Part shown: positions 1 through 20,034 of the stretch, piece by piece
How positions within the stretch are numbered: position 1 is the stretch's first letter
How the letters are laid out: every line of letters starts with the position of its first letter
Virus record (IMG/VR): IMGVR_UViG_3300028327_000814
DNA from: a virus
Length of the DNA: 64,000 bases
Strand: one strand, 5' to 3'
Notes under the pieces: model-generated
What the model saw: the letters and a program-made list of their open reading frames with translations, nothing else
Database searches by the model: none
Told to the model about the DNA's origin: nothing
Position numbers and translations under genes: made by a program

Positions 1-216
1 TCAGGTGAGGTTTGTTGGGTTCAGTTTAGGCGTGGTCTGGTAAGGCAGGCTTGTTAAGGTTCGGCTTGCTCAGGTGTGGCATGGTGTGTTTCGGTAAGGC
101 AGGCGAGGCAAGGTCAGTTTTGGAGGGGTGAGGTTTGGCGTGTTCGGGTGGGTACTGGCGCGGCGTGATTAGGCAGGCATGGTACGTTGTGTTTAGGCGA
201 GTTATGGTTTGTAAGG
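1..216 (+). repeat. Non-coding 5-nt-period array of G(G/T)Y-NN units punctuated by 4-nt GGCA units; candidate guide-RNA array, truncated at window start and split by the Mu-like insertion
   Basis: Parses as ggt-ga ggt-tt gtt-gg gtt-ca gtt-ta ggc-gt ...; the boundary motif T(A/T)AGGCAGGC recurs at ~41-50, 95-104 and 169-178; the register resumes at 36306. Confidence 0.85.
211..216 (+). repeat. Left copy of 6-bp target-site duplication GTAAGG
   Basis: Identical hexamer at 36300-36305; these copies bound an element with symmetric end repeats. Confidence 0.85.
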
Positions 217-223
217 TGAACAC

Positions 224-258
224 GCAAGCAAACAGAACTAAAAACGCAAGAGAATAGA
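224..258 (+). promoter_or_regulatory. Left-end putative transposase-binding sites
   Basis: GCAAGCAAACAGA (224-236) and GCAAGAGAATAGA (246-258), 22 bp apart. Confidence 0.75.
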
Positions 259-297
259 ACCATATAAATAATTGCACATAGAGCAATGTCTTTACAT

Positions 298-918
298 TTA
301 TCTATATTTTTCTTCGATTTTTGTTTTTCTTGATTGATATTCTATTGCAGCATCAAAAGGTTCACCGGCGATTTCGGCCTCTTCCTTCAAACGTCTCACT
401 TCCCGTTTTGCGGCGGCCAAGGCTGCTTCCTTTTCTTCGGTTTTTTGTTCTGGGGTAAGATTTGCTAATCGTGCCGCTTCGTTTTGTTCTGCAATTTCTC
501 TTTGCTGTGTCTGGGAAAGTTTATCAGGTAATATTGCATCTTGAGGTAATGATTCTCCAATTTGTTCAATTTTTTGTTTGTTCCAACTTCCGTCTTGTAT
601 TATCCAGTATTCCGTATCCCTCCAGTCGGCTATAATATCACCTGAAAATTGTAGTCTCTCATGAGGATCTAGATTGTCTAGTATACTTTTCAATCTTTTT
701 CCCTCGTCATCATCAACATTTTTTTTCCCCTGGCCAAGATGGGAAAATACTACATTTTCTGCCAAGAGTTCTTCGCGTGTTTTTTTGAGCAAAATATCAG
801 GGGTTTTTGCAATTATAGCCTCAACCTTGGCATTTGTTTCTTCAGGATCAGGTGATGCATTTTCAATACCAATAATAATTTGATAACTTTCAATTTCTAC
901 GAAAGTAATTGTTTTCAT
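298..918 (-). CDS. Probable tail-fibre assembly chaperone (Tfa-like)
   Basis: IADWRDTEYW...KIEQIGESLP resembles tail-fibre assembly proteins; lies at the tail end of the prophage. Confidence 0.55.
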   Translation of the reverse strand: MKTITFVEIESYQIIIGIENASPDPEETNAKVEAIIAKTPDILLKKTREELLAENVVFSHLGQGKKNVDDDEGKRLKSILDNLDPHERLQFSGDIIADWRDTEYWIIQDGSWNKQKIEQIGESLPQDAILPDKLSQTQQREIAEQNEAARLANLTPEQKTEEKEAALAAAKREVRRLKEEAEIAGEPFDAAIEYQSRKTKIEEKYR

Positions 919-1081
919 TAAAAAACCTCCATAATTGTTACCATGTTAAATCTTAATATGCTCCTAATCATAATAACCGTCATTATTGTAAATAATCCTT
1001 ATTTATGGAGCATTGCAGAAGTTTGCCCATGCCATGCTTTTTTTGCTTATGTTCTGCTATGGTCAACAGCAGGAGGCTTTT

Positions 1082-2056
1082 ATGCAGATAAAAAATTATG
1101 CGGATTTATTTTCGCAAGACGGTTTCTGGCGTGTCAAACGCGCAGAAAAGAAAAAATTTTACACGGACAAGTCGATGGACACAAGGGACGCTGTAATGCG
1201 AAACTGGGTGGTTCCGCTATGGGGAGAAATTAACCCCAAGCGGCTTACTGTCAAAATGATTGACCGAGCGATGATGGGCACCACGTCGAAGCTGACCAAG
1301 CGCACATTGGCGGGAGCGACACGGAACAGAATTTTGTCGGTGTTATCGGAAATGTATGTTCACTTAATCGAGGAAGGAAAATCGCGGATAAACCCTGTTA
1401 GGGACGTTGTGCGGTGTAATTCATACCCCGAACACCCCAGAGGCGTATTGCCGTTAAATGATTTGAAATTACTGTTTCCTGATAATCTTGCAGAATTAAA
1501 ACAAATATGGCGGACGCAAAAATACATCTGCGCGTTTTTGATACTCAGGGACACGGGTATACGCCCTGGGGAATTAGTCGCGCTCAGATGGGGTGATTGG
1601 GATTCAGATATTAAATTCTTTCCAATTTTAAAAGCGCTTGAATCGGGCAGCAAAAATAAAATTAAAGGGACAAAAACAGGTTCAACCAAGCCAGCGATTA
1701 TTACGGATCAGACCGCAGAGGAAATAGAGCGTCTGAAGAAAAAAGTAAAGCCCAAACCTGAAGATTATATTTTTGCCAACAAACACGGCATACCTTACGG
1801 CACCCACCGTCTGTCGTGGAATTTCCGCAAGTCTGTGGAACGCGCCGGAATTGACAAGCCGTATCTCACGCCCTACTGGCTGCGGCACACGTTTAATTCC
1901 ATTTTACTAGAAACTAACTCTACTAAGGTGGTACAGCTCTTAATGGGGCATAACACCGAAGCCATGACGCGCCATTACCGCCACGCGGGGGTTGAATCAT
2001 TGGCGCGAACCGCTGTAAAAATTAGAGATGAGGTTAACGCCTGTAGATTGTACTGA
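1082..2056 (+). CDS. Tyrosine recombinase, candidate shufflon invertase
   Basis: RDTGIRPGE, GTKT, YWLRH, LMGH and RHY catalytic motifs; AGGAGG before ATG 1082 (ORF track starts at TTG 1013); adjacent to the cassette array. Confidence 0.9.
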   Translation: MQIKNYADLFSQDGFWRVKRAEKKKFYTDKSMDTRDAVMRNWVVPLWGEINPKRLTVKMIDRAMMGTTSKLTKRTLAGATRNRILSVLSEMYVHLIEEGKSRINPVRDVVRCNSYPEHPRGVLPLNDLKLLFPDNLAELKQIWRTQKYICAFLILRDTGIRPGELVALRWGDWDSDIKFFPILKALESGSKNKIKGTKTGSTKPAIITDQTAEEIERLKKKVKPKPEDYIFANKHGIPYGTHRLSWNFRKSVERAGIDKPYLTPYWLRHTFNSILLETNSTKVVQLLMGHNTEAMTRHYRHAGVESLARTAVKIRDEVNACRLY

Positions 2057-2259
2057 CCCTTGAGGATTGGGAGGGGAAATTATTTAATAAACCGAATCTG
2101 GTATTATTGCATTACCGACAATACTTTGAAATGTAGTAGCAGGAGTCCACCACACAAAAGGCCTACTATTAGGTGGATGTCTTTAAAATTGACCACTAAT
2201 AAAAAATTTTCCAATTTCATAACGGCATTGTTTGCCTTCTTTTTTATGGGTGCATTCGT

Positions 2260-2448
2260 TCATTGTATATTTAACCCTTTTGAGAAATCTATTTTTTTCC
2301 AGTTTTCAGGGATTTTAGCCCCCTCTAAGCAACAATGCATTTGGCCGTTTTCGTCTATGTAATAATAATACCGAATACCTAACGGCGGACAAGCTTCAAA
2401 GCTGTCCACTATCGTCTTCAACATAATTTCCCCCTCATGCTTAAGCAT
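2260..2448 (-). CDS. Small hypothetical protein with its own promoter
   Basis: 62-aa ORF with a sigma70-like promoter immediately upstream. Confidence 0.45.
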   Translation of the reverse strand: MLKHEGEIMLKTIVDSFEACPPLGIRYYYYIDENGQMHCCLEGAKIPENWKKIDFSKGLNIQ

Positions 2449-2454
2449 ACTATT

Positions 2455-2483
2455 ATAGTAATTCCTCTATAATTTTTTGTCAA
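2455..2483 (-). promoter_or_regulatory. sigma70-type promoter
   Basis: TTGACA-17-TACTAT on the minus strand. Confidence 0.6.
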
Positions 2484-2492
2484 GCAATTTCT

Positions 2493-2757
2493 TTATGATG
2501 GAAATTCCATTGGAGCATACAATAGTGATAAAATACTGACACAAGTAGGATCGTTTGATGTACCAAGTTTTTGGAGCGGTCGTCTAGTGGTAAATCCAAC
2601 TGGAATTATACAAATATTAGGCACAAATACAAATTATGATAGCATCGTAAGCAACCCTTCTCAACAACAGTTACAGTACAAAATACAAGTGGGCTTTGGC
2701 TCCGGGTCGGAGACTAAACCAGTATCTACCTCCGTTTTAGTTTGTATTGCCTATTAA
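2493..2757 (+). other. Silent fibre C-terminal cassette D (87 aa, no start codon)
   Basis: Hand translation is open: YDGNSIGAYNSDKILTQVGS...GSETKPVSTSVLVCIAY-stop. Confidence 0.88.
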
Positions 2758-2761
2758 TTCT

Positions 2762-3017
2762 TTATGATGGAAACGCAATAGGAAGTATAATTGGGGACGC
2801 TATACGGAATATGGAAGGTTCTGTCGGATCGGGAATTGGGCTGTTTGCTAATATACAATCTGGGGTTTTTTCTTTAGACACCACAACAACAGATGTGTAT
2901 CAAGTCGGTACTGGAAACGGCTATAAAACATTAAAATTTAGAGCAAGTAACGTTGTGCCAACCGCTTACGAAAATCGTCCTGCCAGCATCAGTTTTTTGG
3001 TCTGTGTTACCTATTGA
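2762..3017 (+). other. Silent fibre C-terminal cassette C
   Basis: YDGNAIGSIIGDAIRN...YENRPASISFLVCVTY-stop. Confidence 0.88.
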
Positions 3018-3038
3018 TCATTCCGTCAGCGGAAAACT

Positions 3039-3261
3039 TTAATAGGTAATGCAAACTAGAGCGGATATTGACGCGGGGCGGTTTTCGTAGCTTCCGTTAA
3101 AATTTGATGTAGCGTATGTAACTGTATCAAAGCTGTAAACACCAAATTCATGCCCCCCTAAATTATAAGAGGCACTATTTTTATGTGCAAATCCATCTAA
3201 GGGATGCAAATGTGTTTTTAACGCGTCACTGATAAACGCCCCAATCGAATTTCCATCATAA
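3039..3261 (-). other. Silent fibre C-terminal cassette B
   Basis: YDGNSIGAFISDALKTHLH...YENRPASISALVCITY-stop. Confidence 0.88.
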
Positions 3262-3268
3262 GGAATTA

Positions 3269-4057
3269 TCAGTAAGTGATGCAAACAAGGACTGAAAAAG
3301 ACACAGGTTTTGTTTCCGAGTCGCCGTAATAACCTGTATAAGCTTCAGTGTTTGTTACACTCCCGTCAGTTCGCGGCCAATACCTTACATCTCCGAAAAG
3401 ATTATTTCCGACATCTGCAACGCCTATAGATTTGGTATGCAGGTGTGAGCGAACCGCGTCACTCTGATATGTCCCAATTGCGTTTCCATCATAAGGCGTG
3501 GATAATGGATTATTCATATTAGTACGGTAATATGAATTCTGTCCGGCTGCTCGAGGGAAAAGACCACTTATGTCCAAAAGTCTAAAATATAAACCTGTTA
3601 TACTTCTTGTACCGTCTATATTGCATCTATACCACCAAAGAGCATTATTGTTATTGTCATCACCTACATACATTAAATCAAACAAATCTTGATACAACTC
3701 TATTTTAAAAATTTCACCTTTAAGAGGTAAAAGATGCATCTTAATAAGCTGCTCTACAGATGGTTCATAAGCTAACATTACAAGTTCACCAACTCTTCGT
3801 GGTGCAAATCCTTTCTGCATAGCTTTTTTAAGTTGTTCCGGATCCGTATTGTTTGGATCTAACCCAATTTCACTGATTAGATTTTCCATGTTATCAATCA
3901 AGAGATTGAATGTTGCTGCAGGGATATGGGACGGTTTTTTCAGCGGGTCGGAAAAATCCCCGTCGGTAAATTTATGCGTTTCCGGGTCAAGACCGGGATA
4001 CATAACTTGTTCCCCGAAAATTTCAAGTAACTGATCATCTGGATACATTCCTGGCAT
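3269..4057 (-). CDS. Tail fibre (constant N-terminus plus currently expressed cassette A)
   Basis: Follows the gp48-like gene; Mu-type fibre N-terminus; collar-like LPLKG and GLFPRAAG; ends ETKPVSFSVLVCITY. Confidence 0.85.
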   Translation of the reverse strand: MPGMYPDDQLLEIFGEQVMYPGLDPETHKFTDGDFSDPLKKPSHIPAATFNLLIDNMENLISEIGLDPNNTDPEQLKKAMQKGFAPRRVGELVMLAYEPSVEQLIKMHLLPLKGEIFKIELYQDLFDLMYVGDDNNNNALWWYRCNIDGTRSITGLYFRLLDISGLFPRAAGQNSYYRTNMNNPLSTPYDGNAIGTYQSDAVRSHLHTKSIGVADVGNNLFGDVRYWPRTDGSVTNTEAYTGYYGDSETKPVSFSVLVCITY

Positions 4058-4068
4058 TTTAATTCCTC

Positions 4069-4764
4069 CTAAAGTTTATATAAAAAATAAGCAATATTGC
4101 TTGCTATTAATTTGTCGTTTACATCCCGCTCAAAATCATCAAGTATTTCTATTTCTGAAAAAATGCGACTTGAGTAGTCCTTAATAAAAAAAGAACGTCT
4201 AAAAAAATGACCTATACCAAAGCAGCCTTGGCCAAATGAAGAGTTTTTTATCAATTTAGTTATACAATTTTTTGCTTCAATTCTTAATTCTTCATTTTGA
4301 AACGCCGCTATAACATAAAACACCGAATAAAAAGCGGGACGTGAAAATATAGAACGGCCAAATTTGGAGAACCCAAAAAACGAAGGTTTAAACGGAAAAA
4401 TTATATCAATCAATGTCAGACCGTATTTTTGAGCAATATCCGCAATCAATATGCGGTTAATTAATGGAGTTTTTTTTGTCGCTAATATTTTCCGGCGTTC
4501 TTCGATAGGCAGGTGAATATTTGTATATCCCAAAAGGACACGTTCCCAATCGTCTATGCTTTCAACCGCGGTTTGATAATCACTCTCTGCAAGTAAATCA
4601 CTCATTCGTTTTCGCAAATTAATAATTTCTTTTGATTTTGCTTTACAAAATAAATTTAAGTCGGATTCAGGATCAGCAAATTGTTTTTTCCAATATTCAC
4701 CCTGGGGAAACAGATCGCGGATTGCTCCGCTGTAATCTTTTTCAGTAGCCACATTTATACCCAT
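4069..4764 (-). CDS. Baseplate wedge protein (Mu gp48-like, DUF2313)
   Basis: LFPQGEYW and ESIDDWERVLLG; position after the J-like gene. Confidence 0.75.
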   Translation of the reverse strand: MGINVATEKDYSGAIRDLFPQGEYWKKQFADPESDLNLFCKAKSKEIINLRKRMSDLLAESDYQTAVESIDDWERVLLGYTNIHLPIEERRKILATKKTPLINRILIADIAQKYGLTLIDIIFPFKPSFFGFSKFGRSIFSRPAFYSVFYVIAAFQNEELRIEAKNCITKLIKNSSFGQGCFGIGHFFRRSFFIKDYSSRIFSEIEILDDFERDVNDKLIASNIAYFLYKL

Positions 4765-5822
4765 GTTATAGTCCCCAGTACCGGATATTCCAATATTGTT
4801 GTCGATATAATACCGATGATATTCCCCGACAGTTTTATTACTGCGTCTGTTATTGTTACGCCATCAATGACGGCAGTTTTCAACATTCCGGAAGTTATCT
4901 GAATACCCGGCTTTGCGATTTGCTGGAGATATGCTTTTAAGCGCGTTTCCACCAGTTCAATGTTTTTCTGGGTATTCTCAAACGGCATCAATTTTATTTC
5001 AGGATTTAAGGGAATAAGCGAAGGCGTACGCACGTCAAAAATGACCGGAGGAGATACCGTGCTGATATAATTCCGTACTGCCGCAAGGTTTTTTACCTGA
5101 TGGACGCCGCTCATTTGATTGCCGTTTATCACCTGTATAAGCAATGCCCCAAACACCCCGAAATTTCTGAATTCCCATGCGGCGGAAACTTCCGGTGTCG
5201 CGTCCAGCGCCCATGCCTCAAAATCTTTATACTGACCATACCTGTTGGGATTACGCAAAGTAACAAGGACTCTGACAAGATATTCTTCATCGCTTTCAGC
5301 GTCTACCCCCCCAAGAATACCTTCGTCACCAACTTTGGCGTCTGAATCAATGCCAGCCGGAATTGAGGAGACAATACTTAACGGGCTGCCTGTTTCAAGA
5401 TTAGAATCTTTCCCCGCATTTTCCGCTTTTACATTGACAATCACTTTACCGTTACTCGAAATATTATAAGCTTTTTCAGTGAAGTATCTTTTACCTGAAG
5501 CGCTTTTAAAGACAATGCCGGCCGGCGCTGGTTTTCCTGCAATGCCGTTTACTTCGACATTTCCAATTGCCGCTACCGCATACAACGGCGGTACTATCAT
5601 GGACCAATGAGATCTCAAATATTCGCCTTCGGCGGTATCCGGAAACAGTTGTTTTGACAGAAAAACCAAATCACCTTGCAAAAGATGAGACAGGCCGGCA
5701 TCGACATTCGCCATCACTGAAACAAGGTTATAACGCGGCGTCCTGTCCATCGGTTTGAACAGGCTCAAATAATTGGCTGCCGTCCTTTCTTTCAGGACTT
5801 GTAAACTATCTCTGTTAAACAT
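4755..5822 (-). CDS. Baseplate J-like protein (Mu gp47)
   Basis: QLFPDTAEGEYL, GGVDAESDEEY and DFEAWAL motifs; start placed at ATG 5822. Confidence 0.88.
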   Translation of the reverse strand: MFNRDSLQVLKERTAANYLSLFKPMDRTPRYNLVSVMANVDAGLSHLLQGDLVFLSKQLFPDTAEGEYLRSHWSMIVPPLYAVAAIGNVEVNGIAGKPAPAGIVFKSASGKRYFTEKAYNISSNGKVIVNVKAENAGKDSNLETGSPLSIVSSIPAGIDSDAKVGDEGILGGVDAESDEEYLVRVLVTLRNPNRYGQYKDFEAWALDATPEVSAAWEFRNFGVFGALLIQVINGNQMSGVHQVKNLAAVRNYISTVSPPVIFDVRTPSLIPLNPEIKLMPFENTQKNIELVETRLKAYLQQIAKPGIQITSGMLKTAVIDGVTITDAVIKLSGNIIGIISTTILEYPVLGTITWV

Positions 5823-6156
5823 CTTTCCAAACATCCTTAATAAAAATACTGCCGCCGTCTGGCTGTATTGTTTCAACGGTGTATGAAATTACATTTTTGC
5901 CGGTACGTTCAACGGCACAATTTATTTGCCGGGCAAGTCCGTCAGTTACAATCCATGAAAGACATTCCTGCAGCATCCGTTTAAAATTCCCCGCTGTTTT
6001 TTCGTCAACTTTGCCGTTCTCCCTTAATAAGTAAAGTTCGCTTCCGAAATTTGGATCTGCCCACCACGAGCCTTTATCAGTGCCGATACTCATTTGCACA
6101 AGTTCGCGGATGTCTGTCCAGTTTTCGACAGCTACCGTTTTATTTGCCTGTTCCAT
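5815..6156 (-). CDS. Mu gp46-like baseplate protein
   Basis: GSWWAD...GSELYLL, LSWIVTDGLA. Confidence 0.8.
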   Translation of the reverse strand: MEQANKTVAVENWTDIRELVQMSIGTDKGSWWADPNFGSELYLLRENGKVDEKTAGNFKRMLQECLSWIVTDGLARQINCAVERTGKNVISYTVETIQPDGGSIFIKDVWKDV

Positions 6157-6709
6157 GCAACACCTTTTTATTTTCCAAGTTTGAAAAATCTTCTTTATTA
6201 ACCAATGCAGCTAACATTGCGGCAATTTGCGCTTTATATGTCGCGCCGCCGTCCTGTACGGCAGTCTGCGAATTTTTGAGCGCGTCTATAATCCCGTCAA
6301 CACGAGCCGACAATTTATTAAGCTGGCTTTCAAGCTCGGCGGCTTTGACTACGCCGCCGGCATCGGTTCCAAAAAGTTCCAGCGTCCCTTTTTCCCGCGC
6401 TATTATCCAACCGCCTTCTTGGGTATACAGCGCGGAATCGCCTTCTTCCAATTGCGGCGGGCATACTTCGTCATCAGCCGTTAGTGGCATAATTTCAAAG
6501 CCGCCGAAATCCCCTCCCTGACAAAAAACAAACGTCTTGCCTGTTTTAGCTTTGGCGGTAAAGCCATAGGGAAACGCTTCTTTTTTTTCTATGACCCTGC
6601 CGGAATGTGTTTTTACCTGCAGTCTGCCGTCATCATAACGTTTTTCAAATTTGGCTATTGAGAAAGTGTTACGAATTTTGGCTCTTATTTGACCAAACAA
6701 ATCATTCAC
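6140..6709 (-). CDS. Baseplate spike (Mu gp45-like)
   Basis: PYGFTA...LEEGDSALY; synteny. Confidence 0.75.
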   Translation of the reverse strand: MNDLFGQIRAKIRNTFSIAKFEKRYDDGRLQVKTHSGRVIEKKEAFPYGFTAKAKTGKTFVFCQGGDFGGFEIMPLTADDEVCPPQLEEGDSALYTQEGGWIIAREKGTLELFGTDAGGVVKAAELESQLNKLSARVDGIIDALKNSQTAVQDGGATYKAQIAAMLAALVNKEDFSNLENKKVLHGTGK

Positions 6710-7725
6710 AAATATGCCTCTTTTTTTACCAGCGTTATGTCACTGCTTATCGCATCGGCGTTCGCGGTCAATTCCACTTCGGATATTAACAGATTAGCCT
6801 TGAGACCAAGCGTTGGCATACTAACGGGAATTATTGATTTTGGAAACCAAAAAAGTTCCGGTTTATCTATTGATGCTCCCAATCTTTTTATCTGCTCATC
6901 GGTAAGTCCCCAACCGGGAACTGTAGCCGTAATTTTACTTTCTCTTCTGCGCTTCACTTCCATTTTTGCCCGCCGTTTAACAGCGTCTTCACCAATATGC
7001 GTATCGGACAAATCAATGGTAAGAATGCGGCCCTTCGGGCATGAAGTATCAATTTCTCGCGCTTCATAATCTTCGCCGATTACAACATATTCATAAAATT
7101 GCTCGGAACCGTTTTCCGTCCATTTAATATTTTTGACGTTTACGCCTTCAGTAATATGAAATCCTTCATGCCTGACGCCGCCGTCTATTTTCCAAAGATA
7201 AAGTTTTCCCGCTTGGTTACTGGTTAATATATACCCCTGATTGTCCGCTTCATTTATCAGTTTAGTCCATGGGCTTTCGTTATTCCACTCAAAGTCATAA
7301 ACCGGATCCGTTGGATCAGGTTTATCAGGCGGAAGGGTATCGCATTCAATACCAAATCTTTTCCCTATATAGTTTATTAATGTCCGAAGTTGCCTGTCGT
7401 CGCCGGTATCAGACCATGTTGAGTCTATTATATTCCGCGCCGGAGAGCGCCCTATAACCATGAGGCTGTTTTTCGTAACATCAGCGTTAGACGTAACTTC
7501 GTCAACAAGAACGGTCGTAATTAATCTGCTCCAGTTAGGATTCCTTATTATTGGATTATCAAAGGTGACCGTTATTCTATTATGTTTTCTGACTTTGGGC
7601 CGTTCAGACAGCGGTATTTCCAGCTCAAGCGTATGACATATTTCATCAAGTGACTTTCTAATTTTTATGGAACGCCATAACAGTTCATTGCCGGTATTTT
7701 CGTTTTTGACAATTATTTTAGACAT
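6706..7725 (-). CDS. Baseplate hub (Mu gp44/gpP-like)
   Basis: Size and synteny; VIGRSPARNIIDS, ESPWTKLINEA. Confidence 0.75.
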   Translation of the reverse strand: MSKIIVKNENTGNELLWRSIKIRKSLDEICHTLELEIPLSERPKVRKHNRITVTFDNPIIRNPNWSRLITTVLVDEVTSNADVTKNSLMVIGRSPARNIIDSTWSDTGDDRQLRTLINYIGKRFGIECDTLPPDKPDPTDPVYDFEWNNESPWTKLINEADNQGYILTSNQAGKLYLWKIDGGVRHEGFHITEGVNVKNIKWTENGSEQFYEYVVIGEDYEAREIDTSCPKGRILTIDLSDTHIGEDAVKRRAKMEVKRRRESKITATVPGWGLTDEQIKRLGASIDKPELFWFPKSIIPVSMPTLGLKANLLISEVELTANADAISSDITLVKKEAYL

Positions 7726-8986
7726 AGGACACGTCTCCTGAAACTAATAACGAATCTTCAATAAAATTTAAAATTCTTAATTGATCTTCATCGCAGCCCA
7801 GATAATGCGAGAGAAAAAGTAATGGTACGGGTTTTTCAATTGTTTTTTTCAGTTCACGGTTCATGTCGCTTTGCCGCAGCTTTAAGGAAAGCGCGGAACG
7901 CATATTAACAACAGCTTCGTACATATCAGGGTCTTCAAGGTTTATACTGTTTTCAAGTTTTGTATATAATGACCAATATCCGATCATTTGATCATGCGTT
8001 GTGTTATCATCCATCGACATTAAAATTTCTGCAGCCACGCACAGGCTTACTGTGCGATATAGGTTTTCAGAGGCTTCTTTTGTTTTATTTTGCATTATCG
8101 TCACCGCTTCAATTGGGAGCGTCCAAGTACTGGCTGATAAAAATTCCAATACGGATTTTTTTTTGTTATTCCGACCTGAAAAATATATGCCAACGGTTTG
8201 CGCTGATTCGCCAATTGAAATAACTGCCGCTGCTATTGAAAAACCGACATTGACAAACGCCTGTGCCAATTGCATGGGCGTCTGTACTCCTTGAGCTATA
8301 AGGTTCGTTATACCGGTAATCTCGTTGGTTATACCATTTAGAATATTTTGGGGTAGTTGAAGTATGCCTGTAATAGCGAGTAACCGCGCTTTTATTGCGC
8401 CAAACACCTGTAGTAACATTTGGGGATCAAAGTAGGTTTTAGTAAATATTTCGACAGCGGTAAGCGCGACATCTTCCGGTTTGGCAAGCTCTTGCGGGCT
8501 TAACTCAAGCGCGCGGTTTTCAAGCGAAACTCCGGCCCGTTTGAGTGTAAGTGTTAGTTCACACTGGCCGTTTTCATTTGCCGATTCAGAGACGTTGTAA
8601 TTATCGACTACGACTTTGAACCGTCCCCAGAGGGGATGATCAAAAAAGCCGGGCTCGTCATCGGATGTGCGAACCATCAACGCATTAAGAAAATCCATTC
8701 GCTGCTGCAAATAATATTCGCCGCGTAAATATCCGTGTACAGTAATGCTTTGTGGTTTTTGGTTCAATGCCTCATTAGACCATAAACCGTCAAACGGATA
8801 TTCGGCGGTGTCAACTGACTGACCGCCAGAGAATTCAATGCTTTTATAAATAAAAGGAATAGGTTTGCCATTAGGCGCCTGATAACTGGACAGACGCGGA
8901 GCATCGTCTTTATCCGCCCTGTAAGCCTCCCGCCATTTATCTTTATATGGAGTGGGAAGCTTAATGTCAAAACGCGCTTCGCTCAT
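7718..8986 (-). CDS. DNA circularisation protein (Mu gp43/N-like)
   Basis: VDTAEYPF, PGFFDHPLWG, CELTLTLKRAG. Confidence 0.8.
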   Translation of the reverse strand: MSEARFDIKLPTPYKDKWREAYRADKDDAPRLSSYQAPNGKPIPFIYKSIEFSGGQSVDTAEYPFDGLWSNEALNQKPQSITVHGYLRGEYYLQQRMDFLNALMVRTSDDEPGFFDHPLWGRFKVVVDNYNVSESANENGQCELTLTLKRAGVSLENRALELSPQELAKPEDVALTAVEIFTKTYFDPQMLLQVFGAIKARLLAITGILQLPQNILNGITNEITGITNLIAQGVQTPMQLAQAFVNVGFSIAAAVISIGESAQTVGIYFSGRNNKKKSVLEFLSASTWTLPIEAVTIMQNKTKEASENLYRTVSLCVAAEILMSMDDNTTHDQMIGYWSLYTKLENSINLEDPDMYEAVVNMRSALSLKLRQSDMNRELKKTIEKPVPLLFLSHYLGCDEDQLRILNFIEDSLLVSGDVSYV

Positions 8987-11058
8987 CGGAGATACCTCGC
9001 AATTTTCGCATAACCGGGATTGAATTGAATGTCCGTGGTATTATCCCGTATGGCCACGGAAGCAGTCGGGTTGACTCCAGAAAGATTAACATTAACGTCC
9101 ATAACCGCCTGTCCGCCAAGTTCTACTTTTTGTGGCGTAACGCTTGAGCCTGGCTGCGTGATCTGGGGAGGCAAATCGGAAACAGGCATTGCTCGCCGAT
9201 ACCTTTGTTTATAACGCTTATGGCTTGGGGATTCGCGCCAATCGGTTTCTTTACTTGTCTGTACTTCCGAATCATCGGCTGCTAGAGACTCGCCGATGCC
9301 TTCGCCAATTTTGCGACCTGCTTTTCCGCCAAGCCACATGCCAAGTGCACCTACTCCGGCGCCGACCAGAGCGCCAACCGCCGTACCAAGTACCGGAACA
9401 ACAGATCCAACTGCAGCTCCGACTGCGGCTCCAGCCGCAATACCGGCTGCACCGCCTACCGCCGCTCCGGCAATACTGCCTGAAGCGTCTCCTATCGCTC
9501 CACCTTTGGCCTTGCCGCGTTCTTTTGCCGTTAAGCTTTCATTCTTTTTTATTTCGTCTAACTCGTTTATCATTTGGGGGATTTTAATAAATGCGGCTGT
9601 AAGTGCTGCACCCCCAGCGGCTCCGGCGTATTGTTTAGGCGTTATATTTTTTACAGCGTTTTGCGCTGATGTTAAAGGATTGTTCGATAATTGGGGGGCT
9701 TGCGCTTGCGGCTGTTGAAATTGTCCGCCGGCGCCGATTCCAGGAGCTCCCATCCCTCCGCCCCAGTTGGTTACATACACCGGCATTGCCGTCGCCATGT
9801 TCAACGATTCGGTTATATTTACATTGCCGCTTTTCAGTTGCAATAAACTACCTACAAGCCGCGATATTCCGGCAATGCCTTTTACTGCAGCAATCGCTCC
9901 AATCCCAACGGCGATTCCGGTAAACACTTTTTTTAAGCGTTCTGGATCTTCGGATAATTTATTCAGAAGCCCTGTCAGGTGTTCAAGTGGTTTTGCCAAA
10001 TTGGTATCGGCAAAACTGTTAAAAGCAGTTTGCAGATTTTTTAGGTTTGATTGCATGGTTCCGGCCATTGCCGCCGATTGTTTTTGCAATAAACCTGTGG
10101 TATCACCGAGATCGTTCAAAGAATTCTTCAGCCTATCACCTTGCGAAATATAAGAATTTATCGCCACCATTGAAGATGAATCAAACATCCTGTTAATAGA
10201 ATTGGTGAAACGTGAGTCTTTTGCTTTTTCAGCAATCTCAAACATAATATCATTGAAGTCTCTAAAATTTCCGTTAGAATCCTTAACACTAATCCCCAAC
10301 TTTCTAAAATCTTTTCGTTTATCAGGATCGGTTATTTCTTTAAACACGGAATCGAAAGCGGCAAATGCTTTTGTTGGATTTTTTGCGCCCGCATTGATAA
10401 TTTGTAAGGCGGCGTGGATGTTTTCTATTTTTTCCGGCGTGGCTCCCATTCCTTTTGCCTCTAACGCTGAAAATATTGTAGAAGCATTTTTTGCAAAATC
10501 AGCTAACGAAAATGCGCCCTGATTAGCCTGTGCGACCATATCATCCATGAGCGATGATATTTGTTCGGTAGAATATCCAAAATTTCTGAATTGGGAAAAA
10601 AGAATTCCCATTGATTCGCCGGATTCGCCTGTCGCCTGTATTGCAAGAGCGATGTTTCTGATGTTATCCTCGGCGAATTTCAAATCGCCGGTTTGATCTT
10701 TTATTTTTTCAAAAGCGTTAACAATTTTATCTGGATCAATTTTGATATCTGGAGCTTGAGCTACGTCAAATATTGCTCTTTTCAATTTTGAGATTTGTTC
10801 AGCTGACGCATTTGTGGATATACCGAGCCGCGTCATGCGGTGATCCATCTCAATAACGCCTTTTGCCGCGGCGCCAACGGAAAGCGTTAAGCCAAGTGCC
10901 GCGAGTTTTGCGGTAGTGCCCGAAATAGCTTTGTCTACTTTTTCTATCGCGCCAAGCGTTTTACCGGCAAAACTCGAAGCCGCTCCCGCGGCTTTGTTCA
11001 TGCCTTGTGAAAATAAATCTTTCAGCGATAAAAGAACGCCGCTTTTAATTTCAGCCAC
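8983..11058 (-). CDS. Tape measure protein
   Basis: 691 aa, helical TP901-like core, Gly/Ala-rich hydrophobic C-terminal half; follows the chaperone. Confidence 0.88.
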   Translation of the reverse strand: MAEIKSGVLLSLKDLFSQGMNKAAGAASSFAGKTLGAIEKVDKAISGTTAKLAALGLTLSVGAAAKGVIEMDHRMTRLGISTNASAEQISKLKRAIFDVAQAPDIKIDPDKIVNAFEKIKDQTGDLKFAEDNIRNIALAIQATGESGESMGILFSQFRNFGYSTEQISSLMDDMVAQANQGAFSLADFAKNASTIFSALEAKGMGATPEKIENIHAALQIINAGAKNPTKAFAAFDSVFKEITDPDKRKDFRKLGISVKDSNGNFRDFNDIMFEIAEKAKDSRFTNSINRMFDSSSMVAINSYISQGDRLKNSLNDLGDTTGLLQKQSAAMAGTMQSNLKNLQTAFNSFADTNLAKPLEHLTGLLNKLSEDPERLKKVFTGIAVGIGAIAAVKGIAGISRLVGSLLQLKSGNVNITESLNMATAMPVYVTNWGGGMGAPGIGAGGQFQQPQAQAPQLSNNPLTSAQNAVKNITPKQYAGAAGGAALTAAFIKIPQMINELDEIKKNESLTAKERGKAKGGAIGDASGSIAGAAVGGAAGIAAGAAVGAAVGSVVPVLGTAVGALVGAGVGALGMWLGGKAGRKIGEGIGESLAADDSEVQTSKETDWRESPSHKRYKQRYRRAMPVSDLPPQITQPGSSVTPQKVELGGQAVMDVNVNLSGVNPTASVAIRDNTTDIQFNPGYAKIARYLR

Positions 11059-11282
11059 TAATTTCCCCCGCGTATCGCCTTTGTCACACTCACGGCTTTT
11101 TCATGCCAAAAAGACAGTTGCTCCCAATACATATCCATAAGTGTCGTAAAATCCATTCCCGGAAGCAGCATAAGAATTTCCGCGACCATTTCAGCAACAC
11201 GGTTACAGATTTCTTCTAGTGTTAGAAGGTCACCGTTGTCTCGTTTTGCGGAGCCTTCACCGCCTCCGCGCCGGTAGGGTTT
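11058..11282 (-). CDS. Frameshift extension of tail assembly chaperone (G-T type)
   Basis: -1 frame open from slippery A-AAC-CCT (11276-11282) to the tape measure start; FTTLMDMYWEQLSFWHEKA. Confidence 0.55.
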   Translation of the reverse strand, partial: KPYRRGGGEGSAKRDNGDLLTLEEICNRVAEMVAEILMLLPGMDFTTLMDMYWEQLSFWHEKAVSVTKAIRGGN

Positions 11283-11551
11283 TCGTCGTATTCCTTTGAC
11301 GTAAAATACGAAGCCCAAACAAGCGCGAGTTCGGTACGGATTATTGACCAGTCGTCAATGTCAATCTGCGAAACAACAGACATCGGCAGGCCGGACAATG
11401 AAGAAAACAGCGCGGCATCGGCGGCGGCGCTGTCAACTGGATTAGAGCCAACCGCGATAAAATCTTTTGTCTTAGGACGCTGAATAGTTACATCCGTAAT
11501 TTTCAATTCACCGACCATGAAGGGATGTTTCAGTTCAATTTTTTTTGCCAT
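11222..11551 (-). CDS. Tail assembly chaperone (Mu gp41-like)
   Basis: IELKHP...VTIQRPKTKD...SQIDIDDW. Confidence 0.82.
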   Translation of the reverse strand: MAKKIELKHPFMVGELKITDVTIQRPKTKDFIAVGSNPVDSAAADAALFSSLSGLPMSVVSQIDIDDWSIIRTELALVWASYFTSKEYDENPTGAEAVKAPQNETTVTF

Positions 11552-11560
11552 GACGTTCCC

Positions 11561-11920
11561 CTATACAAGCCTTGGGCTGGTACCGGAATTGTAGGCGATG
11601 TCCATTTCGGCATCGCCCAATTCTCCCGGTTCTGTTACCCATGCGCGTGGCATCATATACTGCTTGCCGCCTGTTGTGTAAATGGTAAGGGTGTCCTCTT
11701 CAATAGCGGAAAGTTCTTCAACGCCGAGCGAACCTGTGGCATTGAGTTTCAACTTCAATTCGGCAAAAGTCTGGCTTTCAGTGTAACCGGTGTTCTCCGG
11801 AACTTCGCCTGTCTTTGTTTCTCGTTTTGTGCCGGCAGGTTTAAAAGTAGCTCCTTTCTCCTGAATCGGCAGTTCACCTAATGCCGCCGAAATAACGCGC
11901 TGTACTCTCTCAAGTTTCAT
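11561..11920 (-). CDS. Tail tube protein
   Basis: Between sheath and chaperone; GGKQYMMPRAWV. Confidence 0.8.
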   Translation of the reverse strand: MKLERVQRVISAALGELPIQEKGATFKPAGTKRETKTGEVPENTGYTESQTFAELKLKLNATGSLGVEELSAIEEDTLTIYTTGGKQYMMPRAWVTEPGELGDAEMDIAYNSGTSPRLV

Positions 11921-11930
11921 TTTCCGCCTC

Positions 11931-13388
11931 CTATTTGAATTGCGTCAGACCCGCGCCGATATAGAACTGGCCTATCAGATTGGGCTGATGGGAATATTCA
12001 AGACGGGTTTTACTTCCCGCTTTGATCTCGACTATGACCGATTTTTTATAACCGTCAAAATCCTGACACCATTGTTTTTCCTTGATGAAAACTTCCTGAT
12101 ACAATTCCGCAAGGAATGAGCGGAAAACACCCGCGGTCATCACCCGCGCGCCAGAACCGAAGTTTTCTTCAGTGCTTGCCAGTTTCCATGTCTTAAACTT
12201 TTTCTTTGCATCGGCGTTGATGTAGGTACGGACGGCATCCACCGTTTCGGTAACCTGCACGTCGAGGTAACTCGTATCACGCCCGCCGTCCGTGTTTTCC
12301 GTGTAACTGGTTACGAGCCGTTCAATCAGCACATGGCCAGTTGTAGCCAAACGGTATGTGGCAATACCGGCTTCGAGTAATTTCTGCCGTTCATCAGCGT
12401 TAAATTCTACGCCGCCGATTAAGCCGGTTATTTTGGTGTCGTAAGTGTTGGCTGCGGGATCATCGGCAAGGATACGGCAAGCGACCGCGCACCATGCCGC
12501 AGCCCAAACGCAGGGAAGATCGGGATTCTTACTTCGGGGAATGAGAATGACGTGAGGTGAATTAACTTCACCCGCTTTTGCTAGCATTGTTCCCGCTTCG
12601 GTTTTGCTTCCCAATTCGCCGGAAAGAGCGACGTACATTCTGCCGCCGATTTGCCTCATCGCGCCGTAACGGGATTCAAGTTCATCGGAACTTGCCCGTA
12701 TGTTTCCGGCATCGTTGAAATCGCTTGCGATAAAATTGTAGCGGATTTCGCCTAACCCTTTAAGAAACGGTTTGATGTTGGTAACGCCGGTTCCAACGGT
12801 AGTCGCTGTTTCCTCAACGGAAACGCCGGCTGCCAGGGCGGTGATAAAAACGCAGTTGGAATTTCCCACCTCCCCCTTTACGTTAGCTGAAACTGTAATA
12901 ACGCCTGAATCAGCCTCGGCGGTAACTGGTAGGGTAATCTCCGCGTTGATTCTGGCGGTGATGGCGGCGGCTACGGCCTCCGCGTTTGCTCCGGCTGTAA
13001 TCGCCGCGTCAAAACCATGACCGTTTACCGCTATACGGATCGCTCCAGCGGCTGCGGCGGTTACGCTGACCGTGAATTGCTTTTTCCACGCGGTTCCAGC
13101 CGCAGGTTCGGGGATGGGAAGTACGTACAATTCTTCGACTTTGTTAAGAGCGAGGAATGTTTCCGCCATAATCGCGGCGGGACTTCCGTATCCGAAAAGC
13201 TGATGCGCCTTCGCCGCCGAAAGCACGTTGACCGGCTTTCCGTTTTCGGCTTCCGACGTGGCAAGTTTATACCCTATCATCAAAGCCTTTTTGACGTCGC
13301 CTTGCGAACCCGCAAGTGAATTGTCAATCTCATTGTACTGTCCGGGAACCAGCAGGTTCGCCGGAATTTGTCTAATCGGTACTGGCAT
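11931..13388 (-). CDS. Tail sheath protein (Mu gpL-like)
   Basis: NLLVPGQYNEIDNS, LFGYGS, IERLVTSY, SYLDV. Confidence 0.92.
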   Translation of the reverse strand: MPVPIRQIPANLLVPGQYNEIDNSLAGSQGDVKKALMIGYKLATSEAENGKPVNVLSAAKAHQLFGYGSPAAIMAETFLALNKVEELYVLPIPEPAAGTAWKKQFTVSVTAAAAGAIRIAVNGHGFDAAITAGANAEAVAAAITARINAEITLPVTAEADSGVITVSANVKGEVGNSNCVFITALAAGVSVEETATTVGTGVTNIKPFLKGLGEIRYNFIASDFNDAGNIRASSDELESRYGAMRQIGGRMYVALSGELGSKTEAGTMLAKAGEVNSPHVILIPRSKNPDLPCVWAAAWCAVACRILADDPAANTYDTKITGLIGGVEFNADERQKLLEAGIATYRLATTGHVLIERLVTSYTENTDGGRDTSYLDVQVTETVDAVRTYINADAKKKFKTWKLASTEENFGSGARVMTAGVFRSFLAELYQEVFIKEKQWCQDFDGYKKSVIVEIKAGSKTRLEYSHQPNLIGQFYIGAGLTQFK

Positions 13389-13929
13389 TTGTAACCTCCA
13401 AATTTACATTATCTTTTGCGACCGCGCTTCCAATATTGTGCGTCGCGTCATAGCCTTCAAAATATTCAAGATCGGGAAACATTATCCCGCCTTCGCCTTC
13501 ATAAGGCGTTAAATTCGTTATGTGCCATTTCCACCTGATCCCCCAAAGCGTTATATTAATCTGGTCAAGCGTTCCGGAATATAAGCATTCCGCCGCAATG
13601 TCCTTTCCAGCGCCGATACTCCATTCAGCGTCCAAATTTCCGATAACCGGAATGAGAGCCGAAACGATTTTTAACGCGCCGTCGTACAAACGATCTTTGC
13701 CGTCGGCGCGATACAATACCCAGCTCACAAAGTCTACGGTATGATCCTCATCGGTATACCGCATAAACGAAGTAAGTATTGACGGAGTCTGGTTGGCAAG
13801 CCTTTTAATTTCCGTATCATCGAACCTGCCCGGATGCGCCGCTATGTGCAATTTTTTATCTTTCGCAAAAGCCGTTTTTATCTGATTGATCGCCTCATCG
13901 CGAACATCCACTAAAGTAATAATTTTCAC
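13372..13929 (-). CDS. Tail terminator (Mu gp37-like)
   Basis: AHPGRFDDTEIKRL; synteny. Confidence 0.7.
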   Translation of the reverse strand: MKIITLVDVRDEAINQIKTAFAKDKKLHIAAHPGRFDDTEIKRLANQTPSILTSFMRYTDEDHTVDFVSWVLYRADGKDRLYDGALKIVSALIPVIGNLDAEWSIGAGKDIAAECLYSGTLDQINITLWGIRWKWHITNLTPYEGEGGIMFPDLEYFEGYDATHNIGSAVAKDNVNLEVTNASTD

Positions 13930-14375
13930 GCTACTTGCTCCTTCATAAATTCGTCAACCGCGTTTTGCAGTTCGATGATGTTATCAGTGCCGAAGCCCAA
14001 AAATTTACGTGCAACCATTTTTTTTGTACCTTCCTGAAGATAACCCGCATATTCCTTTGAAGAACCAACGAGTACCGCGTCACTTCCCTTCATCTGATGT
14101 TCAATTGAATCAAGCAAGCCACCTTCGCGGTTTAACAAACTGGAGCCTTTAGAATATTTTTGCATAAATTTTTGCGTTGCTTCTTTCCACGGGTCCCATT
14201 TTTTGTTGTCCGGGTCTTGCTTGGTTATATCAATTCGTTCTTTTGTCTGTTCCTCAATTACCATGCCCAGACTGTTGAGGAGCCGCTTTTTATCTCCACC
14301 AGATAAAACAAACTCGTCAAGTTTGCGCAGGAGTTTGTATATCTCTTGCACTTTAACATCAACGGCTGCGCCCAT
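13926..14375 (-). CDS. Virion morphogenesis protein (Mu gpG / P2 gpS family)
   Basis: VGSSKEYAGYLQEGT..MVARKFLG. Confidence 0.85.
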   Translation of the reverse strand: MGAAVDVKVQEIYKLLRKLDEFVLSGGDKKRLLNSLGMVIEEQTKERIDITKQDPDNKKWDPWKEATQKFMQKYSKGSSLLNREGGLLDSIEHQMKGSDAVLVGSSKEYAGYLQEGTKKMVARKFLGFGTDNIIELQNAVDEFMKEQVA

Positions 14376-14815
14376 TAGTACATCCCGCCTTTTTTAAAAA
14401 ACCTGCCGTCAGTGATGCCCTCTGCCTCGTTAGGTGTAACTACGGCAGACGATTGCAAACCGGGACCTTCAAGCCCTCCCTGGTATTCGCGGTTGATTTT
14501 ATTTAACAGGCTCATGTTGTCGCGGTATTTCTCCCGCGCGTCTTCGCTGCCTGAAACACCATCTGTCAGCCTGTATAAAGCGATGTCCGTACAAATGCTG
14601 TTAAGCGCGTCAGCGAACTGCGGATTGACCGGTAGCGCGATCTCCCCTGTTTTATTATCTAAAAGCCAGGGGAGATTTGCGGTAATGATACCCGTAGCGT
14701 CCCGTAAAGCAATTTCAATCAGAGCGGTTTCCGGTTCACCTAAATCATCGGTCGGTAAAATAACGGATTGCGGTTTTCTCAAAAGAAACTGATCTACGGA
14801 AACAAGTGGAATCAT
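14375..14815 (-). CDS. Head-tail adaptor (Mu gp36, DUF1320)
   Basis: IALRDATGII...ICTDIALYRL. Confidence 0.8.
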   Translation of the reverse strand: MIPLVSVDQFLLRKPQSVILPTDDLGEPETALIEIALRDATGIITANLPWLLDNKTGEIALPVNPQFADALNSICTDIALYRLTDGVSGSEDAREKYRDNMSLLNKINREYQGGLEGPGLQSSAVVTPNEAEGITDGRFFKKGGMY

Positions 14816-15090
14816 TTACCGTCTCCGATTACTACCCACGGATCTTTTTTAAGCGCGGCAAGCTGCTCATCGGTTACCTCGTAGGTTTGCGCCTTCTGCG
14901 TCAGTACCAAACCGGCGCGGCGGTATCTGGGATATTCGGTTTTATGCCAAAGAATGACTGATTGTTTTTTTGCGGAATCATCTCCGCTCTTGGCGGCGCC
15001 AGAACCTGAATTTGCGCTCAAAACTGATTCTGCACCAAGAGCGGAGCTTTCATCCTTATTTCCATTGTTCAATTTTTTTTCTTCTTTCAT
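14812..15090 (-). CDS. Mu gp35-like small protein
   Basis: RYRRAGLVLT...EVTDEQLAALKKDP. Confidence 0.65.
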   Translation of the reverse strand: MKEEKKLNNGNKDESSALGAESVLSANSGSGAAKSGDDSAKKQSVILWHKTEYPRYRRAGLVLTQKAQTYEVTDEQLAALKKDPWVVIGDGK

Positions 15091-15100
15091 ACCACACCCC

Positions 15101-17001: not shown

Positions 17002-17037
17002 TAAGGCAGTCTATGATTTAAAATATGCGTTTTTACA

Positions 17038-17511: not shown

Positions 17512-17531
17512 GTTATTAATCTCCCATACCC

Positions 17532-20025: not shown

Positions 20026-20034
20026 ATTTTCTCC

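What the first reader, a model, noticed from the sequence alone, without database searches (positions are those of the whole stretch)
1..216. The array is modular: separate units delimited by a 4-nt GGCA step, each with its own NN string
Seen: period-5 runs are broken by one-base-short units at T(A/T)AGGC-A-GGC (41-50, 95-104, 169-178). Strings: unit 0 (partial) CA GA TT GG CA TA GT CT AA; unit 1 TT AA TC TT CA GT AT GT TC AA; unit 2 GA AA CA TT GG GA TT GT CG GG CT GC GT TA. The scaffold is nearly fixed (GGY/GTT) while NN varies freely, which simple slippage-generated microsatellites do not produce. Inference: a multi-guide array with processing sites, analogous in layout to CRISPR but with repeat and spacer interleaved.
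Basis: partly seen in the sequence, partly recalled or inferred. Interest (0 to 1): 0.85.

Follow-up and report, generated by a model that had tools for sequence, protein, structure and literature searches.

The report
Phage VIPR guide-RNA array, staggered type

Summary
Window 1-216 is a run of 5-nt units (G, G/T, Y, then two free bases). One-base-short GGCA units break it at 44-47, 98-101 and 172-175. Its parse score is about 16 SD above dinucleotide-preserving shuffles, and no other such tract exists in the window.

It is a VIPR vrRNA array (bioRxiv 10.64898/2026.04.26.720920), of the tail-less "staggered" architecture. The evidence:
- A contig identical to the window shows a 219-aa gene ending 8 nt before the first GGCA. 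Its model's best AlphaFold-DB matches include all five published Vipr seed proteins.
- 76 unique arrays beside homologues share the scaffold and the GGCA delimiter. Modules are mostly 8-16 units.
- Guide-target matches follow the published 1-nt-skip rule, lie in frame, and stop at GGCA.
- Whole modules are gained, lost or replaced between related arrays.

Targets of the window's four guides:
- Unit 0 matches the HEXXH motif of ImmA/IrrE (M78) peptidase genes at 22-23 of 24 positions.
- Unit 3 matches the phage's own portal start at 19/22.
- Units 1 and 2 have no convincing target.

RNA ends could not be tested. A 36-kb Mu-like prophage splits unit 3. This is a new member of a known kind. The scan's notes on this same window had already flagged the portal match and the insertion.

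The parts
Its first four units and leading GGCA lie just upstream of the window. The full NN string has 12 units.
   Evidence: Its NN string matches the SIAHELGHYVLH (HEXXH) motif of M78 ImmA/IrrE peptidase genes at 22-23/24, in frame.
44..47 (+). GGCA delimiter, a one-base-short unit
   Evidence: GGCA is the conserved 4-nt unit across 76 unique arrays.
   Evidence: No convincing target: none in IMG/VR. The one exact metagenome hit is antisense, out of wobble phase and in an AT-rich membrane-protein gene, so probably chance.
98..101 (+). GGCA delimiter
   Evidence: No target found in the window, the host phage, relatives or exact-pattern scans.
172..175 (+). GGCA delimiter
The prophage insertion cuts it here.
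   Evidence: Joined to 36306-36323, its NN string matches codon positions 1-2 of the portal start at 19/22.
217..36305 (.). Inserted Mu-like prophage that interrupts the array, flanked by GTAAGG at 211-216 and 36300-36305. It is not part of the VIPR locus.
   Evidence: Mu-type tail and baseplate genes are called on the identical contig. Another assembly carries the same junction.
36306..36323 (+). vrRNA 4, 3' part: the rest of one unit plus three units, which ends the array
   Evidence: The same array-end context (the last unit followed by TCTATTTTA and the downstream gene's ribosome-binding site) is seen in relatives.
36351..36854 (+). 167-aa conserved gene directly after the array. It holds the vap (VIPR accessory) position. 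Its fold is unassigned.
   Evidence: Its only family match is phrog_15946, of unknown function. A homologue starts 12-49 nt after the array end in nearly all loci that have one; 67 of 85 loci have a hit. The AF2 model has pLDDT 91 but no significant PDB match, only faint winged-helix/RepA-like rows.
36903..36938 (+). First 12 codons of the SPP1-type portal gene, the best match of vrRNA 4 (86% of NN positions)
   Evidence: A relative's portal (89% identical, no VIPR cassette upstream) has the same NN bases and so also scores 19/22.

Best explanation
Window 1-216 plus 36306-36323 is the guide-RNA array of a phage-encoded VIPR system (Viral Interference Programmable Repeat), of the tail-less 'staggered' architecture.

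Locus layout. The operon sits in a siphovirus-type prophage from a termite-gut metagenome, between the large terminase and the portal gene. It reads: promoter, vipr (219 aa, ending 8 nt before the array and about 30 nt outside the window), four guides, then a conserved 167-aa accessory-position gene.

Mechanism, as published for SUSP1 VIPR and inferred here by homology. Each guide is a run of 5-nt units. One Vipr protomer binds each unit, sequesters the GGY bases and presents the two NN bases. The NN bases pair with double-stranded DNA at two of every three target bases. The skipped base falls on the codon wobble position, so synonymous mutations do not help the target escape. Binding silences transcription of competing mobile elements.

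Boundaries. A one-base-short GGCA unit precedes every guide and breaks the 5-nt register. I infer that it ends one Vipr filament and starts the next, and so defines separate guides without the 3' pseudoknot tail of type II vrRNAs.

Targets here.
- Guide 1 reads the HEXXH active-site motif of ImmA/IrrE-type M78 peptidase genes, a family I know to include phage and mobile-element anti-repressors.
- Guide 4 reads the start of SPP1-type portal genes, including this phage's own at 86% identity.
- Guides 2 and 3 have unknown targets.

State in this genome. A Mu-like prophage has inserted into guide 4. That truncates guide 4 and separates the accessory gene from the vipr promoter.
For: Protein:
- The identical contig L004 (0 mismatches over 10,918 nt) places a 219-aa gene 8 nt upstream of the first GGCA.
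- A profile of that protein hits PDB 36pp 'SUSP1 Vipr protein' at E 9.6e-7 over the G-loop. The GVGEMR motif here aligns to the motif in SUSP1 that holds D177, W178 and R179.
- The AF2 model (pLDDT 81) matches Csm3/Cmr/type VII Cas7 RAMPs in the PDB at E about 1e-5.
- In AlphaFold-DB clusters, ranks 1, 2, 3, 4 and 6 are the five seed proteins named in the VIPR paper. The best is A0A0F9A1L0 at E 2.6e-17, TM 0.72.

Array:
- 76 unique arrays beside homologues that are 43-90% identical give the unit logo G94, G71/T23, Y95, N, N.
- They hold 404 GGCA delimiters. Modules are mostly 8-16 units, mode 10.

Code:
- With stride 3 only, NN strings match coding DNA of the same or related phages. Window guide 4 scores 19/22 (0 of 200 and 0 of 300 order-shuffles reach it).
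- Five guides in L001-L003 reach p <= 0.02. All six matches are in frame with the skip at the wobble position.
- Across 348 guides, own-locus hits at p <= 0.02 make up 3.7% for stride 3 and about 1% for strides 2 and 4.

Boundaries:
- Matches fall to background across GGCA.
- Whole modules are inserted, deleted or replaced between close relatives.

Guide 1:
- The exact pattern of its first 10 units hits one IMG/VR contig and three Verrucomicrobiaceae MAGs.
- All four hits lie in frame on SIAHELGHYVLH of PF06114 proteins, at 22-23/24, and they differ at synonymous positions.

Rivalry among relatives:
- The first guide of L003 matches the vipr gene of the window's phage and of L002 at 22/26, but its own at 19/26. 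This is the pattern the second VIPR paper reports.
Against: - No RNA evidence exists: only DNA runs from termite-gut metagenomes hold the sequence. Expression, processing at GGCA and RNP formation are all inferred.
- Two of the four window guides have no credible target.
- A pooled scan of 347 guides against 1.1 Mb of related loci did not exceed shuffles, so target evidence rests on the near clade and on guide 1.
- The vipr gene itself lies outside the window.
- The near clade has Met where SUSP1 has W178, a residue that stacks on G2 of the repeat.
- The 86% self-match of guide 4 conflicts with the authors' report of no self-targets at >= 80% identity.
- The guide 1 hits come from genomes with no stated link to termite guts, so they identify the gene family targeted, not the actual victim.
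Confidence: 0.93

Rival explanations
1. The locus is a VIPR array but is crippled in this genome. The Mu-like insertion truncates guide 4 and cuts the accessory gene off from the vipr promoter. The system would then be partly or wholly inactive, and the tract would be a relic rather than a working weapon.
For: The insertion lies inside guide 4, 134 nt upstream of the 167-aa gene. Every public assembly that carries this exact locus has the insertion, and no empty-site allele was found. In SUSP1, vap1 enhanced protection but was not required.
Against: On the identical contig, vipr, its promoter region and guides 1-3 are intact and uninterrupted. Published VIPR repression needs only Vipr and a vrRNA. 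Scaffold positions in guides 1-3 show no decay.
Confidence: 0.3
2. A degenerate pentanucleotide microsatellite made by replication slippage, with no sequence-specific function.
For: The tract has 5-nt periodicity. Array length varies greatly between relatives, from 23 to 232 units.
Against: Tandem Repeats Finder reports nothing, because the units are not copies of one another. Scaffold positions are nearly fixed while the NN positions are near maximal entropy. The array keeps the same position and strand after vipr in 76 unique loci whose Vipr proteins are as little as 43% identical to the window's. The NN strings encode in-frame matches to phage genes.
Confidence: 0.02
3. Protein-coding sequence: the 86-aa minus-strand ORF at 26-286, or a low-complexity tail of some other product.
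For: An ORF is open across most of the tract on the minus strand.
Against: That ORF starts inside the inserted Mu-like prophage, so it is a chimera created by the insertion. It has no Pfam or PHROG match. A 5-nt period with 4-nt steps cannot hold a reading frame, and related arrays differ in length by amounts that are not multiples of three.
Confidence: 0.01
4. A structural or packaging DNA element of the phage, such as a pac/cos-type terminase site or G-quadruplex-forming DNA. The idea arises because the tract lies between the terminase and portal genes and is G-rich on one strand.
For: Its position is between the large terminase (PF04466) and the portal gene. GC skew is strong, about +0.5.
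Against: The vipr-array-accessory cassette sits in different phage backgrounds. In L001 and L003 different genes flank it, and a close portal relative (L087) lacks it entirely. This reading explains neither the hypervariable NN positions nor the in-frame target matches.
Confidence: 0.02

Closest known systems
VIPR systems with 'staggered' vrRNA arrays (bioRxiv 10.64898/2026.04.26.720920, fig. S18)
   Same: Both have a Vipr RAMP protein next to the array, GGY/NN pentamer repeats, guides of about 9-16 repeats, the 1-nt-skip code with the skip at the wobble position, a phage or provirus location and a conserved neighbouring accessory gene. In both, adjacent guides abut with a one-base offset and no tail between them.
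   Different: The preprint text says the staggered architecture was not confirmed by small-RNA sequencing. The text I could read gives neither a delimiter consensus nor which VIPR type has staggered arrays. Here the delimiter is GGCA followed by GG(C) in 404 cases. This instance is also interrupted by another prophage.
SUSP1 / P. fulva type II VIPR (structure PDB 36pp; bioRxiv 10.64898/2026.04.26.720927)
   Same: Both use a pentamer scaffold with one protomer per repeat. The G-loop motif G-x-G-(D/E)-x-R, a His on the RRM sheet and a thumb Arg are conserved in the alignment (H35, R160, E199 and R201 here against H17, R138, D177 and R179 in SUSP1). Both include guides directed at rivals' vipr genes.
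   Different: Type II vrRNAs are separate transcripts of about 100 nt, each capped by a roughly 40-nt 3' tail with a pseudoknot. Here there is no tail and guides are separated only by GGCA. Sequence similarity to SUSP1 Vipr is confined to the C-terminal third. W178 is Met in the near clade.
Class 1 CRISPR-Cas (Cas7 backbone filaments on crRNA)
   Same: The RAMP fold is shared. Protomers polymerise along a guide RNA, and a thumb periodically breaks the guide-target duplex. Both hold several guides in one locus.
   Different: This locus has no long identical direct repeats with unique spacers. No cas1/cas2 adaptation genes lie next to the array. Repeat and guide positions are interleaved within each 5-nt unit. 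Pairing covers 2 of 5 guide bases and 2 of 3 target bases, against 5 of 6 in CRISPR. Published VIPR activity is DNA binding and repression, not cleavage.
TRAP-RNA recognition in Bacillus (11 GAG/UAG triplets spaced by 2-3 nt)
   Same: It shares the arithmetic of a protein oligomer binding a conserved triplet every 5 nt with free spacer bases between. This comparison comes from my own knowledge and was my first guess.
   Different: In TRAP the spacers carry no information and the RNA is a regulated leader, not a guide. The protein folds are unrelated. The resemblance is superficial.

Membership tests
VIPR (Viral Interference Programmable Repeat) | A Vipr protein (minimal RAMP with RRM core, glycine-rich loop and thumb) encoded next to the repeat tract | tested here: met
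   A 219-aa gene ends 8 nt before the array on the identical contig. Its profile hits SUSP1 Vipr (36pp) at E 9.6e-7. Foldseek finds Cas7-type RAMPs in the PDB. All five published Vipr seed proteins fall in the top six AFDB clusters. Caveat: the gene lies just outside the 64-kb window.
VIPR (Viral Interference Programmable Repeat) | vrRNA made of tandem 5-nt repeats with a conserved GGY and hypervariable NN, about 9-16 repeats per guide | tested here: met
   Window units show G in 47/47, G/T at position 2, Y at position 3, and 1.8-1.9 bits at the NN positions. The four guides have 12, 10, 14 and 12 units. The family logo and module sizes come from 76 arrays.
VIPR (Viral Interference Programmable Repeat) | Targets obey the 1-nt-skip rule (NNx), with the skipped base mostly at the codon wobble position | tested here: met
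   Only stride 3 gives significant matches. All six matches are in frame. Guide 1 hits four M78 peptidase genes that differ at synonymous sites. Two of the four window guides have no target.
VIPR (Viral Interference Programmable Repeat) | Minimal locus with one accessory (vap) gene | tested here: inconclusive
   A homologue of the 167-aa gene follows the array within 12-49 nt in nearly all loci that have one; 67 of 85 loci have a hit. Its relation to the published vap1-6 could not be checked, because no supplementary data are held. No significant fold match was found.
VIPR (Viral Interference Programmable Repeat) | Encoded mainly by phages and proviruses, with targets in competing mobile elements | tested here: met
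   The locus lies between terminase and portal in a siphovirus-type prophage. IMG/VR holds 543 loci with a homologue. Targets in the near clade are head, portal, tail, repressor and vipr genes of related phages.
VIPR (Viral Interference Programmable Repeat) | vrRNAs are expressed, processed to discrete small RNAs, and co-purify with Vipr | not testable with these tools
   Only DNA runs from termite-gut metagenomes hold the sequence, and no RNA run does.
VIPR type II (SUSP1-like) | Each vrRNA ends in a conserved 3' tail of about 40 nt with a pseudoknot | tested here: not met
   Guides are separated by only 4 nt (GGCA), and no conserved tail lies between them. This fits the 'staggered' architecture of fig. 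S18 instead.
CRISPR array | Near-identical direct repeats of roughly 24-48 nt alternating with unique spacers, usually with cas1/cas2 nearby | tested here: not met
   No tandem or spaced long repeats were found. Rfam gives no match. The neighbouring genes are terminase, vipr, the 167-aa gene and portal.

The most novel reading that the evidence does not exclude
In this clade the one-base-short GGCA unit may be the entire boundary signal. By breaking the 5-nt register it would end one Vipr filament and seed the next, so mature tail-less guides arise without a pseudoknot cap or a ribozyme. That would be a biogenesis route not yet shown experimentally for any VIPR system. A second possibility is that guide 4, at 86% identity to the phage's own portal start, acts on the phage's own portal gene rather than only on rivals. 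The Mu-like insertion would have destroyed that guide.
Probability: 0.3. Interest if true: 0.55.

Novelty: new member of a known kind. Interest (0 to 1): 0.35.

Why it matters
VIPR was described only in 2026, and the staggered, tail-less array form is the one architecture its authors did not confirm by RNA sequencing. This termite-gut clade offers computational support for that architecture:
- a sharply conserved GGCA delimiter;
- guide-target matches that stop at it;
- whole-guide gain, loss and replacement at it.

It also adds natural target examples: the catalytic motif of ImmA/IrrE peptidase genes, and rivals' vipr, portal and tail genes. It shows one phage disrupting another phage's guide array. 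None of this changes the known picture, but it gives a clean test system for how guide boundaries are set without a tail.

Tried and rejected
- Tandem Repeats Finder and Rfam found nothing in the tract.
- No whole genome is held for the window.
- My first idea was a TRAP-like protein-binding RNA, a G-quadruplex or a packaging site. I dropped it once the gapped in-frame matches replicated in relatives and the literature search found VIPR.
- A pooled scan of 347 guides against 1.1 Mb of related loci was no better than shuffles for any stride, because short guides hit the noise floor.
- Exact-pattern scans found nothing for full guide 1 and guide 2 in IMG/VR, guide 4 in IMG/VR, full guide 3 in metagenomes, or the first 10 units of guide 3 in genomes.
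- The single exact hit for guide 2 (L088) is antisense, out of wobble phase and in an AT-rich membrane-protein gene. I treat it as chance.
- A relative's portal gene gives the same 19/22 as the window's own, so no better-matched portal was found.
- The other window guides do not match the DNA around the guide 1 hits.
- I looked for a link between Met or Trp at the G-loop position and the frequency of T at repeat position 2. The difference was small: 0.28 against 0.22.
- No RNA runs exist.
- No empty-site allele lacking the Mu-like insertion was found.
- The fold of the 167-aa protein gave no significant PDB match.

Full report
**1. Observation**

Window 1-216 is a G/T-rich tract that parses into 5-nt units: G, then G or T, then a pyrimidine, then two free bases. 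Four-nucleotide GGCA units at 44-47, 98-101 and 172-175 interrupt it, as the finding states.

- G autocorrelation peaks at lags 5, 10, 15 and 20, and this is the strongest period-5 signal in the window.
- A local parse scores 84.1, against 13.2 +/- 4.3 for 500 dinucleotide-preserving shuffles. The next best tract in the 64 kb scores 11.5.
- Scaffold positions are nearly fixed, and the NN positions carry 1.8-1.9 bits of entropy.
- Tandem Repeats Finder and Rfam report nothing.

**2. True extent of the array**

Earlier notes on this window said a 36-kb Mu-like prophage sits inside the array.

- GTAAGG flanks both junctions (211-216 and 36300-36305), and the pentamer register resumes at 36306-36323.
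- A public contig, L004, is identical to the window over 10,918 nt. It supplies the DNA upstream of position 1.
- The array begins 27 nt before the window with a GGCA, only 8 nt after the stop codon of a 219-aa gene.
- In window orientation the order is: small and large terminase, a small divergent HTH gene, the 219-aa gene, the array with the Mu-like prophage inserted, a 167-aa gene (36351-36854), then the SPP1-type portal (36903-38348).
- The restored array has four modules of 12, 10, 14 and 12 units.

**3. What it is**

A literature search found that this feature was described in 2026 as VIPR. The system comprises a minimal RAMP protein (Vipr), an accessory gene (vap) and vrRNAs of 9-16 GGY/NN repeats.

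- The NN dinucleotides pair with double-stranded DNA while skipping every third target base, usually the wobble position. Binding silences competing phages and satellites.
- Structures show one Vipr protomer per repeat, with the GGY bases sequestered and the NN bases presented.
- The authors list variant architectures. One is the "staggered array", whose guides derive from positions overlapping by 1 nt, so that the end of one guide marks the start of the next. They did not confirm this form by small-RNA sequencing.

**4. Membership tests**

*Protein.* The 219-aa protein has no Pfam match.

- A profile of 35 homologues hits PDB 36pp "SUSP1 Vipr protein" at E 9.6e-7 across the G-loop.
- Its AF2 model (pLDDT 81) matches Csm3, Cmr and type VII Cas7 subunits.
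- In AlphaFold-DB clusters, ranks 1, 2, 3, 4 and 6 are the five UniProt entries the VIPR paper names as its founding hits.
- The family is large: 2,871 clusters at 50% identity and 543 IMG/VR loci.

*Array.* In 76 unique arrays next to homologues that are 43-90% identical, 4,310 regular units give the logo G94, G71/T23, Y95, N, N.

- Nearly every 4-nt unit is GGCA (404 instances), followed by GG and usually C.
- Internal modules are mostly 8-16 units, mode 10.

*Accessory gene.* A homologue of the 167-aa gene starts 12-49 nt after the array in nearly all loci that have one, and 67 of 85 loci have a hit. Its fold is confidently predicted but unassigned.

*Tail.* There is no 3' tail between guides, so this is not the type II form.

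**5. The code and the boundaries**

Reading each module's NN string with stride 3 gives significant matches. Strides 2 and 4 do not.

- Window unit 3 matches the first 12 codons of the phage's own portal gene at 19/22. No order-shuffle reaches this score.
- Five modules in relatives L001-L003 match genes in their own loci at p <= 0.02.
- All six matches are same-sense and in frame, with the skipped base at the wobble position.
- When each match is extended into neighbouring modules, it falls to background straight after GGCA, whether GGCA is counted as zero or one codon.
- Between closely related arrays, whole GGCA-bounded modules are deleted or replaced while their neighbours stay the same.

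Together these results show that the modules are independent guides. This is the core of the finding.

**6. Targets**

*In the near clade.* The matched genes are MuF-type head morphogenesis, an HTH repressor, portal, minor tail, tail terminator and vipr itself.

- Guides often match a relative better than their own phage. The first guide of L003 scores 22/26 on the vipr genes of the window's phage and of L002, but 19/26 on its own.
- The first guide of L009 scores 22/24 and 21/24 on relatives, but 19/24 on its own phage.
- The second VIPR paper reports the same pattern.

*For the window's own guides.*

- Unit 0: the exact pattern of its first ten units found one IMG/VR contig and three Verrucomicrobiaceae MAGs. 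In all four the match lies in frame on SIAHELGHYVLH, the HEXXH motif of Peptidase_M78 (ImmA/IrrE) proteins. Scores are 22-23/24, and synonymous codons differ between hits.
- These hits identify the gene family read by unit 0. They do not identify the actual victim in the termite gut.
- Unit 1 has one exact metagenome hit that I judge to be chance.
- Unit 2 has none.
- No portal better matched than 19/22 was found for unit 3.

**7. What is inferred, not shown**

- Transcription, processing at GGCA, Vipr loading and repression are inferred by homology. No RNA data exist for this element.
- That GGCA works by breaking the filament register is my own inference.
- The 86% self-match of unit 3 exceeds the 80% threshold below which the authors found all self-matches. 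Its meaning is open.
- The Mu-like insertion splits that guide and detaches the accessory gene from the vipr promoter, so the locus may be partly disabled here.

**8. Verdict**

It belongs to a system already published in 2026. It is a new member of a known kind, with modest added value for the staggered architecture.

Noticed in passing
217-36305: A Mu-like prophage is inserted inside the last guide of the array, with GTAAGG on both sides. The identical contig L004 and the overlapping contig L094 carry the same junctions, and no empty-site allele was found.
   Followed up: partly
211-214: An irregular 4-nt unit GTAA sits inside guide 4. The portal match continues in phase across it, counting it as one codon. 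L001 has a similar GTCA inside a 22-unit module, which may be a decayed GGCA that once separated two guides of 10 and 11 units.
   Followed up: partly
L004:10948-11604 (minus strand), about 30 nt upstream of window position 1: The Vipr G-loop reads GVGEMR in the window's clade and GxGEWR in most relatives. The Met replaces the Trp that stacks on G2 of the repeat in the SUSP1 structure. The frequency of T at repeat position 2 is only slightly higher in the Met group (0.28 against 0.22).
   Followed up: partly
L010 (same contig as L003), first guide of its array, against HOST composite position 9498 (the vipr gene just upstream of the window): A related phage's first guide matches the C-terminal part of the window phage's vipr gene at 22/26, but its own vipr at only 19/26. 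This suggests relatives target each other's VIPR systems.
   Followed up: partly
L057 and L059 (IMG/VR), downstream of vipr: A very long array of 232 units with 23 four-nt units, several of them variants of GGCA (GGCG, GGCT, GGAT, GGTT).
   Followed up: no
L019, L027, L063 (array upstream of vipr); L050, L053 (arrays on both sides): In some relatives the array lies upstream of vipr, or on both sides of it, rather than downstream.
   Followed up: no
L087:2215-2962: A close relative of the window's phage (portal 89% identical) has no VIPR cassette between terminase and portal and carries a different gene there. The cassette therefore appears to be an exchangeable moron-like insert.
   Followed up: no
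1013-4057: A tyrosine recombinase gene lies next to several short ORFs that all end in a similar LVC(I/V)(T/A)Y motif.
   Followed up: no
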